Notes: a model not told the origin generated them from the sequence alone. DNA of 64,000 nt from a virus (IMGVR_UViG_2724679538_000004:1-64000), one strand, 5' to 3'; shown: positions 367-19,169, counted from the first letter of the stretch. A program made the numbers and translations.

Positions 367-3300
367 ATGTGGTACAGGGAAGGTACTATTACCTTTACGC
401 AAGGTAAATCTACGCTTGTAGGCGTAGGCACAAAATGGAATATGACCGAGAATGGCGTTCTGCCTGGAATGATCGTCATTGGGCCAGATAATAAGCTGTA
501 TGAAATTAAACGCGTCATCAGCGACACTAATTTGACGCTAGTCGAGGCTTATACAGGAGAAACCCAAAGCGAAGTCCCTTGTCGTATTATCACCACTTAT
601 GAAGGCGATTTAACGCAATTCAGTGCTCGGTTTACGGCATTAATGAATCGTATGTCTGCCGATTCAAAGACAATGCGTAGTTGGTTGACAGCTCTTGATG
701 AGGTGACAATCGAGCGTGAAGACGGCACAGAAGTGACCGTTAAGCCTCTGATGCAGATCGTCAACGAACATAATGAAAACGTTGAGTGGTATAAAAATAA
801 CACTGACGCAATTGATGCCGCTGGCGACAAAGCTCGTGAAGCTGCGGCCAGTGCTGCGGTGGCAGCAGAAAGCGCCAATACCGCTGGAGAAAAAGCCTCT
901 CAAGCGTCTCAAAGTGCATCCGCTGCGGCAGATTCACAAAGTGCTGCAAGCGCGAGCGCAACTGCTGCAAAAAAATCTGAAACAAACGCAGAATCAGCAT
1001 ATGTAGCGGCAGCAGAATCAGCATCTTTGGCGTCGACTAAAGCATCGGAGGCGTCCACATCTGCGTCCAGTGCCTCTGCATCTAAGGATGCGGCTAAACT
1101 ATCAGAGACTAACGCTTCATCGAGTGCAAACGCGGCGGCATCATTTGCAACAGAAGCTGAAAATGCGTCTAAGGCAGCAAAAACATCAGAGACAAACGCA
1201 AAAGCATCTGAAACGGCCGCCGAACAGAGTGCATCATCTGCAAACAGTTCTAAATCTGCGGCGGAGGCGTCTGCGAGCGAAGCCTCTGCAAGCGCTGATA
1301 GTGCTTCATCAAGTGCAACTGCGGCAGGAAAGTCTGCGGAAAGCGCGTCGACATCAGCGGCAACAGCTACCGCAAAAGCGACAGAAGCGACGGAACAGGC
1401 GACGTTGGCCAGTGCCTCAGTTACAGCAGCAAAGACATCGGAAGAAAATGCTAAGGCTTCTGAAAAAAATGCTCAGGCATCAATGATCGCGGCGGCGGCA
1501 TCAGCTGAATCGGCAGCAAGTTCAGCAACGGAGGCTGTATCTTCTAAGGATGCGGCAGTGACAAAGGCAACAGAGGCAGCAGAGTCAGCTTCAACCGCGA
1601 CAACAAAGGCAAGTGAGTCCTCCGCCAGTGCTGATGCGGCAGCGAAGAGCAAAACAGCTGCGGAATCAGCGGCAACAAGAGCGGAATCAGCGGCTGAACG
1701 AGCAGAAGACATTGCGGCGGCAGTAGGGATTGAAGACGCAACTCTGACAACAAAAGGTGTTGTGAAGCTTAGTAGCGCAATCAACAGCGAGTCTGAGGAA
1801 CTGGCAGCTACGCCGAAAGCGGTAAAGGCAGCCTATGATTTGGCCAACAGCAAGTATACAGCACAGGACTCAACTACAGCTCAAAAGGGACTTGTCCAAC
1901 TTAGCAGTGATATCAATAGCGGTAGCGAAGCTTTTGCGGCCACACCAAAGGCGGTAAAAGCCGCATACGACAACGCTGAAACACGCCTTCGGAAAGACCA
2001 GAACGGCGCAGATATACCTGGGAAAGACACCTTCGTAAAAAATATTGGCGCGGCGAAAGCTGCCAGCGGCAATATCAGCATCGGAGGGGACAGCAATAAC
2101 TGGACGACGGCGCAATTTATCGAGTGGCTGGAGTCTCAAGGGGCGTTCAATCATCCATATTGGATGTGCAAAGGCTCCTGGGCTTACGCTGCCAATAAAA
2201 TCATCACGGATACCGGTTGTGGAAATATACAACTTTCTGGCGCTGTAGTTGAGGTTATGGGGGTTCGAGAGGCTATGACTATTCGCGTCACCACCCCCAC
2301 GACCGCAACGAACGGCGGAACCGTCAAGGCTCAGTTTACCTACATCAACCACGGTGACGCTTATGCGCCAGGCTGGAGACGCGACTTTAATCGAGCTGGC
2401 GATTCAATGTCAGGCCAATTGACTTTGGCGAATATGTCGCAGCCATTAAGATCACCAGGAGGTGGTATATTTGCCAATGATGGCAACGTGTATATCAATA
2501 AACAGGGTTTTGCTGGATGGATCGATGCGCTCTTTTTGAAATTAACCGGAGGCACTTTAACTGGTCCTCTTGCATTCCAAAATTCAAACGGCAAAGCATT
2601 TAGGGTGATGACGGATCATACACCTTCACTAAATACTTATATGCAAATATGGGGTGAATCTTCAAGGCCAACGGTTATTGAATTAAAAGATGAGAAGGGT
2701 TATCACTTTTACAGCCAAAGAAACACTAATGACTCTATTACAATGAGTATTAATGGTGAGGTGGTTTCCAGATCAGCAAATGCTTTCCGTGCCGCATACG
2801 GGAATTATGGCTTTTTCATTCGAAATGACGGAACGACTACTTATTTCCTACTAACCAATTCAGGTGATCCGCTTGGTGGGTGGAGTGGCTTGCGTCCATT
2901 GTACATTAATAACTCAACAGGACGAGTAACGTTTGGAAATGGCGTTGATATTAATAATGGGGCAGTAATTAACGGTGGTGTTGGACTGGGGGTGACTAAC
3001 GCTCTTGGCGGAAACTCTATTGTTTTAGGCGATAATGATACGGGCTTTAAACAGAACGGTGATGGCATTCTTGATGTTTATGCAAATAATGCCCATGTTT
3101 TTCGGTTCGTTAATGGCACGCTGCAAAGCCTTAAGCCATTGAGTGTAACAGGGGATATTGCGTCAAGTGCATGGGTTTACGCCAACCGTTATTCTATCAA
3201 CAGCGGATCTGGCGCATGGATTGATATGCGGAACCAGAACGTCATTTTCGGGAAGAATGCTGTAAGCACAAGCTCTGCACAGGCGTTGTTGAGACAAGAC

Positions 3301-17707: not shown

Positions 17708-17859
17708 TGATTCCATACATCTCATTAGCTTTTATGGCTGGATTCCTCATCGGCTTCGGCATCTGTCGTGATTTGATTAAGCAGGAGCTTAAAACCAAAA
17801 CACTATGCATCGGTAAGCGTGTGTATCGAGTTGTTCATGAAACAAAGGTGAGAAAATGA
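17707..17859 (+). CDS. small membrane protein (50 aa)
   Basis: TAATG overlap with upstream ORF; hydrophobic MIPYISLAFMAGFLIGFGI. Confidence 0.4.
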   Translation: MIPYISLAFMAGFLIGFGICRDLIKQELKTKTLCIGKRVYRVVHETKVRK

Positions 17860-18161
17860 GCAATCTAACTTCTTGGGAATGGTGGCTGGTAAGCTATTTT
17901 GTGGCTGCCGGAGTCGGATTTGCCTTTTACGTAGGTCTGTTAGTCGTAAAACTACTACTGATTAGATTTGCTAGTCATAAACGTATTGACGATGGTCTGT
18001 GGCGTCTGGGGTCTCTTGTTGAGATTCACTACGGCCAACTTAAGGAGAACGAAACTATCACTATACAAGCGAAACGATTTACCGCCACAATCACGAGGAC
18101 TCCTGATCAGAAAGGCGCTTTGATCAAAAAAGTTGCAACTAAAACTCTTGCTGAAAAATAA
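17856..18161 (+). CDS. membrane protein
   Basis: 101 aa, ATGA overlap; TM segment WWLVSYFVAAGVGFAFYVGLLVV. Confidence 0.5.
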   Translation: MSNLTSWEWWLVSYFVAAGVGFAFYVGLLVVKLLLIRFASHKRIDDGLWRLGSLVEIHYGQLKENETITIQAKRFTATITRTPDQKGALIKKVATKTLAEK

Positions 18162-18178
18162 GTATTTACTTACTTATT
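18157..18178. repeat. motif A copy
   Basis: AATAAGTATTTACTTACTTATT overlapping stop codon. Confidence 0.6.
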
Positions 18179-18922
18179 TTTTATGTATAAGATTTCTTTG
18201 TTTTCGTTGAAGTGCGACTTTTTGAACTTAAATACAAGTGCAAACGAAGAAGTCTATCTGGCAGTAGCTTAAGAGGCCAAACACCAGCGAGGTCAGTTTC
18301 CAGCCTCGTTACCAAAATGGGACACACTGAGCGAGTGTGATTGCAGAACGCAGGAGGGGCATTCATGTTCCCTCCGATGAAGTAACAGGATGGACGGTTA
18401 ATAGATTTCCACATTCACTTAACCTCCCGGACTCTTGGTTGTTGACCGTCCATCCTGTTACGTCATTTTGTTTAATTATGTCGTTTATTCTGGGTTAAAA
18501 GCGGCGACGTAGCCCGGCTGGTGTGGTTAGCCAGCGCATAACGTTGAGGTCATTGCATTTTTATCAATTCTAAGGTTCTATTCACAGAGATACCGGCGAG
18601 CGTTGATATGTAACATGTTGGGCAAACATTCAATCGGAGTAGTGGCCTCAACGTTGTGAAGACAGGATTGTTGTGTAGGTTTAACCACTGTTGCCATTGG
18701 TGCCTGTTTTCACAACAAATGATTCCATACATCACATTGTATAAATTACAAAGTAGGTGCTGTCCTCAAAAACATCATCTACTTAAAGATTTTGCCTTCT
18801 ATTGAGCGAAGTCGAAAACGTCTGGCACTAACGAAAAGTGCAAGTAGCGGTACGTTTCCTGGCAGAAACTAACACCGCCGCGATTGGCACTGTTGAGTAA
18901 TAAATACTGGCAGTGCTGAATT

Positions 18923-18997
18923 GATGGTGTAGCTCAGCGGTAGAGCAGTTGGCTGTTAACCAACTGGTCGGTGGTTCGAATCCACCCACCATCGCCA
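18923..18997 (+). tRNA. tRNA-Asn (anticodon GTT)
   Basis: Hand-folded cloverleaf: acceptor GATGGTG/CACCATC, D-stem GCTC/GAGC, anticodon loop CTGTTAA, T-arm GGTGG-TTCGAAT-CCACC, encoded CCA. Confidence 0.85.
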
Positions 18998-19002
18998 ATT
19001 TA

Positions 19003-19089
19003 GGGGAGTTAGTCCGTAGAGGTAGCGGTGTAGACTGTAAATCTACTGTCATTGCGACTCGGGTGGTTCGACTCCATCACTCCCCACCA
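19003..19089 (+). tRNA. tRNA-Tyr (anticodon GTA), long variable arm
   Basis: Acceptor GGGGAGT/ACTCCCC, anticodon arm GTAGA-CTGTAAA-TCTAC, T-loop GGTTCGACTCC, encoded CCA. Confidence 0.75.
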
Positions 19090-19093
19090 AATT

Positions 19094-19169
19094 GCCGGTT
19101 TAGCTCAGTTGGTAGAGCAGTCGCTTTGTAAGCGAATGGCCAGCGGTTCAAGTCCGTTAACCGGCACCA
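19094..19169 (+). tRNA. tRNA-Thr (anticodon TGT)
   Basis: Acceptor GCCGGTT/AACCGGC, D-arm TAGCTCAGTTGGTAGAGC, anticodon loop TTTGTAA, T-loop TTCAAGT, encoded CCA. Confidence 0.75.

What the first reader, a model, noticed from the sequence alone, without database searches (positions are those of the whole stretch)
18179..18922. ORF-free, hairpin-rich 740-bp region upstream of the tRNA cluster: candidate small RNAs
No convincing ORF, but several strong hairpins: GGAGGG...CCCTCC (18353-18375); a 17-bp stem GTAACAGGATGGACGGT...ACCGTCCATCCTGTTAC (18382-18461); and TTGTTGTG...CACAACAA (18669-18719). By analogy with T4 and T5, where stable small RNAs are encoded beside the tRNAs, this may encode one or more ncRNAs, or a regulatory or origin element.
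Basis: seen in the sequence. Interest (0 to 1): 0.55.

Follow-up and report, generated by a model that had tools for sequence, protein, structure and literature searches.

The report
Phage tmRNA-like message RNA lacking tRNA half
The "empty" stretch before the tRNA genes of this SSU5-type phage-plasmid encodes a structured RNA that copies the message half of bacterial tmRNA (a 10-codon degradation-tag frame with its flanking folds) but has no tRNA-like half. This is unexpected, because such an RNA could not rescue ribosomes on its own.

Summary
Window 18179-18922 has no conserved ORF and is packed with hairpins. Two of the three named hairpins are confirmed with covariation; the third is mis-paired.

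At 18240-18272 lies a tmRNA-type tag frame, GCA AAC GAA GAA GTC TAT CTG GCA GTA GCT TAA (ANEEVYLAVA*). It is preceded by the tmRNA "resume" context. It is followed by a stop-codon hairpin (H5-like) and two covariation-supported pseudoknots.

The same element occurs in several unrelated phage groups:
- SSU5/pHCM2/pMT1-type phage-plasmids
- Felix O1-like myophages, inside their tRNA cluster and behind a consensus promoter
- 46-kb Klebsiella siphophages
- lambdoid prophages

In every intact copy but one the frame is open. Its changes are mostly synonymous or conservative, and all three stop codons are used.

No tRNA-like domain exists in the window, in 263 of 265 loci, or in a complete 46-kb phage genome that carries the element.

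Best reading: a phage "message-only" tmRNA relative that acts through the host trans-translation machinery. The mechanism is inferred. The 3' two-thirds of the interval (18345-18922) are conserved structured extensions and spacers leading into tRNA-Asn. This appears to be a new variant of a known kind and is highly testable.

The parts
18154..18181 (.). Perfect 11-nt palindrome (AAAAATAAGTA / TACTTATTTTT). It overlaps the stop codon of the upstream ORF and the putative -35, and could be an operator.
   Evidence: repeat I4. The core TAAGTA..TACTTA is conserved in all SSU5-like relatives and changes on both arms in Enterobacter pCP102 (TAGGTA..TACCTA). The operator function is inferred.
18165..18193 (+). 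Putative sigma-70 promoter: -35 TTTACT (18165-70), 17-nt spacer, -10 TAAGAT (18188-93). The predicted start is about G18200.
   Evidence: It matches only 8 of 12 consensus positions, so the scanner did not call it. Other lineages have promoters at the same position relative to GTTTTCG: wV8 TTGACA-17-TATAGT (perfect -35, 5/6 -10), KpV2811 TTGACA-17-TAGATT, and Klebsiella plasmids TTTACT-17-TATGAT. Inferred, not mapped.
18200..18239 (+). 5' leader: near-invariant GUUUUCG(U) (18200-07), GCGAC (18214-18), and a small hairpin (CUU 18227-29 / AAG 18236-38) just before the resume codon.
   Evidence: Alignments. The C/G swap CUU/AAG versus GUU/AAC between the E. coli and SSU5 lineages is read from the alignment. 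ARAGORN recognises 'tacaagtgcaaacgaaga' as a tmRNA resume consensus. GUUUUCGU is complementary to E. coli ssrA nt 97-104.
18240..18272 (+). tmRNA-type tag reading frame: GCA AAC GAA GAA GTC TAT CTG GCA GTA GCT TAA = ANEEVYLAVA*.
   Evidence: In a set anchored only on downstream sequence, 114 of 114 copies keep an intact 10-codon frame. Changes at conserved codons are mostly synonymous (AAC/AAT, GTA/GTG, GCA/GCC/GCT, GCC/GCT/GCG), and the stop is TAA, TGA or TAG. There is no in-frame start codon upstream.
18258..18287 (+). H5-like helix enclosing the stop codon: outer CUGG 18258-61 with CCAG 18284-87, plus an inner short stem around the UAA.
   Evidence: helix 1 is 100% paired but invariant; helix 2 is 91% paired, with GC/GU/UA changes..
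18288..18322 (+). Pseudoknot 'PK2': stem 1 is CGAGG 18288-92 with CCUCG 18304-08. Stem 2 pairs the loop UUCCA 18298-302 with UGGGA 18318-22.
   Evidence: helix 3 is 99% paired with 3 pairs changed on both sides; helix 4 is 100% paired with 2 pairs changed on both sides. Within the SSU5 group the variants are UUCCA/UGGGA, UUCCA/UGGAA and CUCCA/UGGAG.
18323..18352 (+). 'PK3': stem 1 is CACACU 18323-28 with AGUGUG 18334-39. The second stem is weak in this lineage (a small UGC/GCA hairpin at 18342-52).
   Evidence: helix 5 is 100% paired with 2 pairs changed on both sides. CACAC/GUGUG changes to CAGAC/GUCUG. In other lineages the second stem is 4-8 bp with entirely different sequences (GCCC/GGGC, GCCCUGA/UCAGGGC, GACGGGAG/CUCCCGUC).
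18353..18375 (+).
   Evidence: 9 bp, 93% paired, 6 pairs with double changes..
18376..18467 (+).
   Evidence: repeat I1; 98% paired, 8 pairs with double changes; z = -7.2 together with hairpin A.
18468..18536 (+). Highly conserved block (..AUUAUGUCGUUUA..GACGUAGCCCGGCUGG..GGUUAGCCAGC) with hairpins at 18493-18515 and 18517-18535.
   Evidence: UCGUUU (18479-86 region) can pair with AAACGA at the start of the tag (RNAalifold), but without covariation.
18537..18658 (+). Long-range helix D (18537-55 with 18640-58) enclosing a variable, deletable insert.
   Evidence: repeat I2; 19 bp, 92% paired, 7 pairs with double changes. The insert is deleted between AACGTTG repeats in plasmid pCRKP-2.
18653..18716 (+). 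Helix E: GUUGUGAAGACAGG with CCUGUUUUCACAAC.
   Evidence: repeat I3; it covaries in SSU5 (GUUGUGAAAGCAGG/CCUGGUUUCACAAC) and in Klebsiella (GUUGUGGUCACGG/CCGUGGCCACAAC).
18717..18922 (+). Spacer up to tRNA-Asn: conserved AAAUGAUUCCAUACAUC (18717-33), hairpins at 18751-84 and 18824-42, and otherwise lineage-specific sequence.
   Evidence: No terminator-like site was found between 18000 and 19200, so read-through into the tRNAs is likely (inferred).
18923..19169 (+). tRNA-Asn(GUU), tRNA-Tyr(GUA) and tRNA-Thr(UGU) on the same strand, immediately downstream.

Best explanation
SHOWN. Window 18200-18345 (+ strand) is a gene for a structured RNA homologous in design to the mRNA-like half of tmRNA. 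It has a leader with the tmRNA resume-codon context. It has a 10-codon tag frame (ANEEVYLAVA-stop) that begins at GCA with no start codon. A hairpin holds the stop codon, and two H-type pseudoknots follow. In the SSU5 lineage the RNA continues with further conserved hairpins to about 18716, then runs through a spacer into tRNA-Asn/Tyr/Thr. The encoded peptide, not only the RNA fold, is under purifying selection. There is no tRNA-like domain: no acceptor stem, no G3-U70, no T-arm and no CCA.

INFERRED. The RNA is made from its own promoter at the head of the tRNA operon and is released by tRNA-type processing. Because the frame is evidently decoded yet cannot be initiated conventionally, and the RNA cannot be aminoacylated, it most likely works through the host's trans-translation machinery (Ala-tmRNA-SmpB on stalled ribosomes). 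In that reading it either supplies an alternative tag template or competes with the host message, so that the phage changes what happens to stalled ribosomes and their products.

A possible tether is the near-invariant 5' GUUUUCG(U). With flanking bases in most lineages, it is complementary to codons 3-6 of the E. coli tmRNA tag frame.
For: Tag frame and resume consensus.

Homologues with the same architecture in four unrelated phage groups.

Promoters directly upstream (near-consensus in wV8 and KpV2811).

Frame integrity and substitution pattern: all 133 pattern-selected copies end in a stop codon, and 114 of 114 copies in a tag-independent set keep the frame. The alternative +1 frame and the antisense frames are broken by the same substitutions.

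Covariation: 94.8% of cells paired versus 27-42% for slid controls; 63 double-change cells versus 20 expected; 0 of 500 shuffles reach the observed values.

A model built without any SSU5-type sequence finds the window element once, at 75.4 bits and E = 1.6e-16. E. coli ssrA scores only 16.6 bits.

No tRNA-like domain:
- ARAGORN and Rfam on the window
- my own T-arm/acceptor scan of the window
- the complete KpV2811 genome: 0 tRNA, 0 tmRNA
- 263 of 265 loci without any tmRNA call

Complementarity of the 5' motif to ssrA nt 96-106 in 41 of 44 representatives.
Against: - No transcript has been shown. A Y. pestis sRNA-seq catalogue lists nothing at this pMT1 locus.
- No known mechanism lets a message that is not covalently or helically joined to a tRNA-like domain enter a rescued ribosome.
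- The 8-nt complementarity present in the window lineage is weak statistically. Half of shuffled elements have some 8-mer complement to ssrA; 10-mers occur in 4%.
- Salmonella Felix O1-type phages keep the same 5' motif, although Salmonella tmRNA is, from memory, ANDETYALAA with one mismatch.
- Primary-sequence similarity to E. coli ssrA is limited to 8-13 nt at the start of the tag, so descent from tmRNA rather than convergence is inferred from architecture.
- The PK1 equivalent and any H2 equivalent are not established.
Confidence: 0.6

Rival explanations
1. Decoy or inhibitor. The RNA is not translated. It mimics the tmRNA message region to titrate a host factor (SmpB tail, ribosomal protein S1, RNase R, or the empty mRNA channel), or it anneals to host tmRNA and so blocks trans-translation. 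This would mirror the tRNA-like-domain-only tmRNA of mycobacteriophage DS6A.
For: - tmRNA-like folds without a chargeable end.
- A 5' motif antisense to the host tag frame.
- Precedent: a tRNA-like-domain-only molecule like that of phage DS6A inhibits tmRNA when expressed in E. coli (PMC11915505, PMC4131195).
Against: A pure decoy does not explain codon-level selection. Third-position synonymous changes, Tyr/Phe-only and Asp/Glu-only positions, and retention of a stop through TAA/TGA/TAG all point to decoding.
Confidence: 0.2
2. Structured leader or processing spacers of the tRNA operon, or generic stable small RNAs like T4 species 1/2, with the tag resemblance incidental.
For: - The element sits at the head of the tRNA cluster or inside it, on the same strand.
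- No terminator lies before tRNA-Asn.
- The 3' portion (18537-18922) consists of CAYAAC...GUUGUG-flanked modules like those between the downstream tRNAs.
Against: - KpV2811 carries the element behind its own promoter in a genome with no tRNA at all.
- Lambdoid prophage copies also have no nearby tRNA.
- The tag frame is conserved at the peptide level.
Confidence: 0.1
3. Decaying remnant (pseudogene) of a once complete phage tmRNA, or an attP-type fragment of host ssrA.
For: - tmRNA genes are common integration sites.
- An integrase gene lies at 23246-24349 by homology to Cyrano.
- One metagenomic copy has an internal stop.
Against: - The element is conserved with compensatory changes across four phage groups and hundreds of replicons.
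- It has its own promoters.
- It corresponds to the middle of tmRNA, not the 3' end used by att sites, and shares only 8-13 nt with E. coli ssrA.
Confidence: 0.05
4. A DNA element (replication origin or partition site), or a small protein gene on either strand.
For: - Inverted repeats are abundant.
- Antisense ORFs of 46-77 aa are annotated in some Felix-type records.
Against: - There are no iterons and no skew change at the region.
- The pseudoknot covariation is strand-specific RNA logic.
- Antisense ORFs differ in frame, start and length.
- The +1 AUG/GUG frame is destroyed by observed substitutions.
- These plasmids are typed IncFIB; that the replicon maps elsewhere is my assumption, not located here.
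Confidence: 0.03

Closest known systems
Bacterial tmRNA (SsrA), Rfam RF00023 and clan CL00001
   Same: - Resume codon GCA with the A/U-rich upstream consensus.
- A 10-codon tag of the ANDENYALAA type, with Asn2, an acidic residue at position 3, an aromatic residue at position 6, and an Ala-rich hydrophobic C-terminus.
- The stop codon sits in a hairpin (H5).
- A series of H-type pseudoknots follows.
   Different: - No tRNA-like domain and no long H2 helix.
- The 5' end lies at or near the leader rather than at an RNase P-cut acceptor strand.
- The tag ends in LAVA, not ALAA.
- Scores are far below the Rfam thresholds (11-15 bits versus 47-84).
- It is phage-borne and linked to tRNA arrays.
Two-piece (circularly permuted) tmRNAs of alpha- and beta-proteobacteria and cyanobacteria (RF01849-51, RF04321)
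   Same: The message is carried on an RNA separate from the CCA-bearing piece. The best, though weak, Rfam and ARAGORN matches are to permuted models.
   Different: The coding piece of a two-piece tmRNA still starts with the 5' acceptor strand, and it is encoded next to its acceptor piece. Neither is present here.
Mycobacteriophage DS6A tmRNA, which has a tRNA-like domain only and no coding sequence
   Same: A phage-encoded half-tmRNA that cannot perform the full reaction. A similar molecule is reported to inhibit host tmRNA (PMC11915505, PMC4131195).
   Different: It is the opposite half: DS6A keeps the tRNA-like domain and lacks the message, whereas this RNA keeps the message and lacks the tRNA-like domain.
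'ssrA' calls by ARAGORN in Felix O1 and Moogle genome announcements (PMC4319497, PMC4392139)
   Same: The same tag element (ANDNVFLAVA) in Felix O1-like phages.
   Different: The published call is a 750-nt 'permuted tmRNA' whose 5' domain is actually tRNA-Lys and which spans three tRNA genes. It was not analysed further, it is not reproduced in most relatives, and the tmRNA database surveys do not list these phages.
   Same: Small structured RNAs co-located with phage tRNA genes. STnc100-like modules do occur further downstream in this window (19666-19838).
   Different: No sequence or model match within 18179-18922. None of those RNAs carries a tag reading frame. The statement about the T4 and T5 RNAs is from my own knowledge and was not tested here.

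Membership tests
tmRNA (SsrA) | tRNA-like domain: 7-bp acceptor stem with G3-U70, T-arm with a UUCRA loop, and a 3' (N)CCA that can be charged with alanine | tested here: not met
   ARAGORN at default finds only 4 tRNAs and no tmRNA in 64 kb. My own acceptor/T-arm scan finds only those tRNAs and no G3-U70. The relaxed ARAGORN call places its 'domains' inside a protein ORF, without a T-loop or CCA. The complete KpV2811 genome has none. 263 of 265 loci have none.
tmRNA (SsrA) | mRNA-like domain: a resume codon with no start codon or Shine-Dalgarno sequence, a conserved upstream context, and a short frame encoding a hydrophobic/Ala C-terminal tag followed by a stop | tested here: met
   18240-18272 reads ANEEVYLAVA*. 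ARAGORN recognises the resume consensus. The frame is intact in 114 of 114 independently anchored copies, with mostly synonymous or conservative changes. In-frame stops lie upstream without any AUG/GUG/UUG, read from the sequences.
tmRNA (SsrA) | Helix 5 containing the stop codon | tested here: met
   CUGG/CCAG outer stem plus an inner stem around the UAA; 91-100% paired. The outer stem never varies, so its support comes from conservation only.
tmRNA (SsrA) | Pseudoknots downstream of the tag (PK2-PK4) and PK1 upstream | tested here: inconclusive
   Two downstream pseudoknots are supported by compensatory changes. In the SSU5 lineage, hairpins take the place of a third. An upstream AGUUUU/GAAACU plus CUUUG/CAAAG pseudoknot is possible in some lineages but has no covariation (read).
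tmRNA (SsrA) | Score above the curated Rfam threshold | tested here: not met
   beta_tmRNA 14.6 and 11.6 bits (threshold 84); tmRNA_permuted 12.5 bits (threshold 47).
Two-piece (permuted) tmRNA | An adjacent acceptor piece (T-arm, 3' acceptor strand, CCA), followed by a coding piece that begins with the complementary 5' acceptor strand | tested here: not met
   The permuted-acceptor scan is negative for the window and for all SSU5-like, Klebsiella siphophage and lambdoid loci. It is positive only in Felix/Moogle phages, about 500 nt upstream. There the acceptor stem lacks G3-U70 and is separated from the tag by three tRNA genes.
Hfq-type trans-acting sRNA with a 5' seed | A conserved single-stranded seed complementary to a target, a Rho-independent terminator, and Hfq binding | tested here: inconclusive
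   The 5' GUUUUCG(U) is complementary to E. coli ssrA nt 96-106. No terminator was found. Hfq binding is not testable with these tools.
STnc100 / PasD | Match to RF02076 | tested here: not met
   There is no hit within 18179-18922. The hit lies at 19666-19838 (43.8 bits, threshold 47).

The most novel reading that the evidence does not exclude
A 'tag-swap' module. The phage RNA is a free-standing message that docks onto host Ala-tmRNA-SmpB. Its 5' GUUUUCGU seed would pair with codons 3-6 of the host tag frame and make the host message unloadable. The RNA would then present its own resume codon, so that rescued ribosomes append a phage-specified tag (...YLAVA) instead of ...YALAA. This would be the first natural example of a tmRNA message supplied in trans, and of a virus reprogramming the degradation tag of its host.
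Probability: 0.2. Interest if true: 0.95.

Novelty: new variant of a known kind. Interest (0 to 1): 0.8.

Why it matters
tmRNA is defined by uniting a tRNA half and a message half in one ribonucleoprotein. Natural variants known so far are one-piece, two-piece (base-paired), or tRNA-half-only.

A message-half-only relative under selection for its encoded tag would mean one of two things. Either a tmRNA message can be used or sensed in trans, or phages have a dedicated RNA to interfere with ribosome rescue and proteolytic tagging. Such an RNA is carried here by lytic myophages and siphophages, lambdoid prophages, and the SSU5/pHCM2/pMT1 phage-plasmids. It is present in about 5% of complete E. 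coli genomes and on the Y. pestis pMT1 plasmid.

The idea is directly testable with existing genetics: ssrA and smpB mutants, epitope-modified tags, and Felix O1 or SSU5 deletions.

It also exposes a blind spot. tmRNA finders key on the tRNA-like domain, so this family is unannotated in hundreds of RefSeq replicons.

Tried and rejected
1. Full or permuted tmRNA. ARAGORN at 80% threshold calls a permuted tmRNA at 17925-18363, but both of its 'tRNA domains' lie in the upstream protein ORF and have no T-loop or CCA. Rejected.

2. A closing helix between the 5' leader and GAAGACAGG (18659-67), as in the single-sequence MFE. The comparative data favour the local helix 18653-66 with 18703-16, so this is treated as a by-product of sequence similarity.

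3. Leader pairing with its own tag start (MFE). It is not conserved where codons 3-4 differ, as read.

4. RNAalifold pairing of AAACGA (tag start) with UCGUUU (18479-86). Both sides are invariant and the pairing is broken in pCP102. Unresolved.

5. Antisense ORF and +1-frame small ORF. Both rejected.

6. The genome-contig scan with GCYAAACACCAGNNNGGT returned only chance matches. That scan was wasted.

7. Whole-molecule RNAduplex of the element against ssrA was uninformative. It was replaced by exact k-mer complementarity with shuffles.

8. Literature:
- No paper was found describing this RNA in SSU5, pHCM2 or pMT1.
- The sequence-string search was swamped by 'flava...' words.
- The Y. pestis sRNAs sR082 and sR083 map elsewhere on pMT1.
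- The Felix O1 genome paper does not mention tmRNA.

9. Neighbouring small ORFs have no Pfam match and no conserved protein partner.

Full report
CONTEXT. The window is an SSU5/pHCM2-type phage-plasmid. The stretch 17800-20100 is 91-92% identical to Escherichia phages CMS-2020a and Cyrano and about 80% identical to Salmonella phage SSU5. In all of them a roughly 750-bp stretch without annotated genes lies between a small membrane-protein ORF (window 17856-18161) and tRNA-Asn. ARAGORN finds tRNA-Asn, Tyr and Thr at 18923-19169 and tRNA-Ser at 19816-19902.

THE OBSERVATION. The interval has only short ORFs of at most 77 aa. PGAP annotates nothing there in about 250 E. coli plasmids.

- 18377-18401 with 18442-18466 (25 nt, 92% complementary).
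- 18537-52 with 18643-58.
- 18653-66 with 18703-16.

As RNA, 18198-18720 folds with z = -5.9 against dinucleotide shuffles. The two central hairpins alone give z = -7.2.

Among 17 SSU5-group representatives (55-94% identical to the window), RNAalifold and my pair counts give:
- hairpin 18353-75: 6 pairs with double changes.
- hairpin 18376-18467: 25 bp, 98% paired, 8 pairs with double changes.
- long-range helix 18537-55 with 18640-58: 7 pairs with double changes.

The conserved pairing is GUUGUGAAGACAGG with CCUGUUUUCACAAC.

Positions 18240-18272 read GCA AAC GAA GAA GTC TAT CTG GCA GTA GCT TAA, which translates to ANEEVYLAVA-stop. This resembles the E. coli tmRNA tag ANDENYALAA (E. coli ssrA sequence retrieved).
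- Rfam gives only sub-threshold matches to permuted/beta tmRNA models, all driven by the tag.
- ARAGORN at relaxed thresholds recognises the resume consensus and the tag, but it invents tRNA domains inside the upstream ORF.

RELATIVES. Sensitive BLAST of 18162-18922 finds the region in 773 plasmids (Klebsiella, Escherichia, Enterobacter, Yersinia pMT1, Salmonella, Citrobacter, Cronobacter) and 317 phage records. Its 5' 150 nt also match three unrelated kinds of phage:
- Felix O1-like myophages. The element sits inside the tRNA cluster on the tRNA strand, directly behind TTGACA-17-TATAGT.
- Klebsiella siphophages of about 46 kb. The element sits behind TTGACA-17-TAGATT in an intergenic region.
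- Lambdoid E. coli prophages. The element lies between the Q antiterminator gene and the holin gene.

258 of 5426 complete E. coli genomes carry it.

STRUCTURE. All copies share the same parts: a leader beginning (A)GUUUUCG, an A/U-rich resume context, the 10-codon frame, a CUGG...CCAG helix enclosing the stop codon, and two H-type pseudoknots.

On an alignment of 29 non-SSU5 sequences, the six helices are 94.8% paired, against 27-42% when the partners are slid. There are 63 double-change cells against 20 +/- 3.5 in shuffles, and 0 of 500 shuffles reach the observed values.

The second stem of the second pseudoknot has entirely different sequences in different lineages.

A covariance model built only from these non-SSU5 sequences hits the window once, at 18226-18361 (75.4 bits, E = 1.6e-16). 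It hits every SSU5-like locus at 74-80 bits, while E. coli ssrA scores 16.6 bits. The window element therefore belongs to one family spanning these phages, and that family is distinct from bona fide tmRNA.

IS THE FRAME DECODED? In 133 copies selected by a tag-based pattern, all have a stop codon in place, and TAA, TGA and TAG are all used.

That set is biased by the pattern. I therefore re-sampled IMG/VR with an anchor lying wholly downstream of the tag; that scan was exhaustive, with 108 loci. All 114 occurrences keep an intact GCA...stop frame of 10 codons.
- At the otherwise invariant codons the variants are AAC/AAT, GTA/GTG, GCA/GCC/GCT and GCC/GCT/GCG, all synonymous. Only two single non-synonymous variants were seen (AAA, and GCA for Val).
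- Position 3 is Asp or Glu in nearly every copy (one Ser variant in the independently anchored set), and position 6 is always Tyr or Phe.
- The same substitutions would be radical, or would abolish the stop, in the +1 frame (NUG CAA ACG ... UAG) and in the antisense frames. The antisense frames also differ in frame, start and length between lineages.
- No AUG/GUG/UUG lies in frame between the upstream stop and GCA.
- One of about 85 metagenomic copies has an internal stop.

I conclude that the peptide is under selection, which implies tmRNA-style resumption rather than initiation.

NO tRNA-LIKE DOMAIN.
- The window has only four tRNA-shaped elements, and none has G3-U70.
- The complete KpV2811 genome has the element but no tRNA, no tmRNA and no acceptor/T-arm structure.
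- Of 265 loci (+/- 1.5 kb), ARAGORN calls a tmRNA only in the two Mooglevirus contigs. There the 'tmRNA' is 750 nt long, uses tRNA-Lys as its 5' domain, and spans three tRNA genes.

This explains the literature. Two genome announcements state that ARAGORN finds ssrA in Moogle and Felix O1. The curated tmRNA surveys list only mycobacteriophages and Bacillus phage G, plus the tRNA-like-domain-only DS6A molecule. I found nothing on SSU5, pHCM2 or pMT1.

MECHANISM (inferred). An RNA whose tag frame is selected, but which can be neither initiated nor charged, should depend on the host Ala-tmRNA-SmpB system.

One lead is the near-invariant 5' GUUUUCG(U). Extended to UAGUUUUCGU or AGUUUUCGUC in most lineages, it is perfectly complementary to E. 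coli ssrA nt 96-106, which are codons 3-6 of the host tag (41 of 44 representatives). The element's own codons 3-5 vary freely.

Statistically this is modest. Some 8-mer complement to ssrA occurs in 50% of shuffles and a 10-mer in 4%. Salmonella Felix-type phages keep the same motif, although I recall the Salmonella tag as ANDETYALAA, which is my own knowledge and was not checked here.

I therefore rank the readings as follows:
- 'acts through host trans-translation' is most likely.
- the specific 'tag-swap by tethering' is a 20% novel case.
- a pure decoy or antisense inhibitor is the main rival.

From established work on the ssrA degron (my own knowledge), the retained Asn and Tyr/Phe positions are the SspB-contact positions. 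The LAVA ending alters the ClpX-contact LAA. This is compatible with a modified rather than abolished degron.

THE REST OF THE INTERVAL. 18345-18716 is an SSU5-lineage extension of conserved hairpins and a highly conserved single-stranded block. The helices at 18537-18716 are flanked by CAYAAC...GUUGUG motifs, the same punctuation seen around modules downstream of the tRNAs (19170-19260) and in other lineages.

No terminator-like site precedes tRNA-Asn, so co-transcription with the tRNAs and release by tRNA-processing enzymes is likely (inferred). In Y. pestis pMT1 the region is truncated after about 500 bp by the caf1R locus.

VERDICT. This is a widespread, unannotated, phage-borne message-only relative of tmRNA, and its mechanism is open.

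Noticed in passing
window 19252-19362 and 19666-19838: There are STnc100/PasD-like structured RNA modules between and after the tRNA genes: a closing helix UGUGAUG...CAUCACA, an internal hairpin, and a CCGGGAGGCACCCGG-type hairpin next to the 3' strand. Rfam STnc100 scores 43.8 bits (threshold 47) at 19666-19838. This part of the window resembles the P1 upl-plp tRNA region.
   Followed up: partly
L003 (wV8) ~1960-2075; L005 (Mordin) ~1975-2075: Felix/Moogle phages carry a circularly permuted tRNA-like gene about 500 nt upstream of the tag element. Its order is T-arm, 3' acceptor strand, a 4-8 nt linker (with CCA in Mordin), 5' acceptor strand, then D-arm. The acceptor stem covaries completely (GTCGAGT/ACTCGGC versus GAAGGGT/ACCCTTC) and has no G3-U70. 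It is absent from the window and the other lineages.
   Followed up: partly
L003 (wV8) 2702-2784; also L257 and L258: In wV8-type Felix phages, the tRNA-Arg(UCU) that follows the tag element in Mordin is replaced by an odd tRNA-like sequence. It has a 7-bp acceptor stem with G3-U70, A73, an encoded CCA and a T-arm, but no D-arm, and ARAGORN does not call it. Alanine identity elements right next to the message element may be a coincidence or a lead.
   Followed up: partly
window 18154-18181: A perfect palindrome overlaps the putative -35 of the element's promoter. Its core TAAGTA..TACTTA changes on both arms in Enterobacter pCP102. It is a possible repressor operator controlling the RNA and the tRNA operon.
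   Followed up: no
L007 (Y. pestis pMT-1) 1201-1703: pMT1 keeps the promoter, the tag element and the hairpins, but the region is cut off after about 500 bp by the caf1R/F1 capsule locus and has lost tRNA-Asn. Published Y. pestis sRNA catalogues list no RNA there.
   Followed up: partly
L011 (K. pneumoniae pCRKP-2) versus window 18545-18650: The insert enclosed by the long-range helix is cleanly deleted between the AACGTTG direct repeats. That part is therefore dispensable.
   Followed up: no
window 20084-21436 (- strand): A 450-aa ORF in a sharply AT-rich block (GC 0.28-0.31 versus about 0.47 around it) lies just after the tRNA region. It is absent at this position in Cyrano and SSU5 and looks like a recently acquired cargo gene.
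   Followed up: no
L012 (E. coli ET245 prophage) 3130-3235: In the lambdoid copy, the module after the tag element contains a T-arm-like GGCGGTTCGACTCCGC next to the 3' strand of its closing helix (AAGAGCA...TGCTCTT). ARAGORN calls no tRNA. It is possibly a decayed tRNA gene.
   Followed up: no
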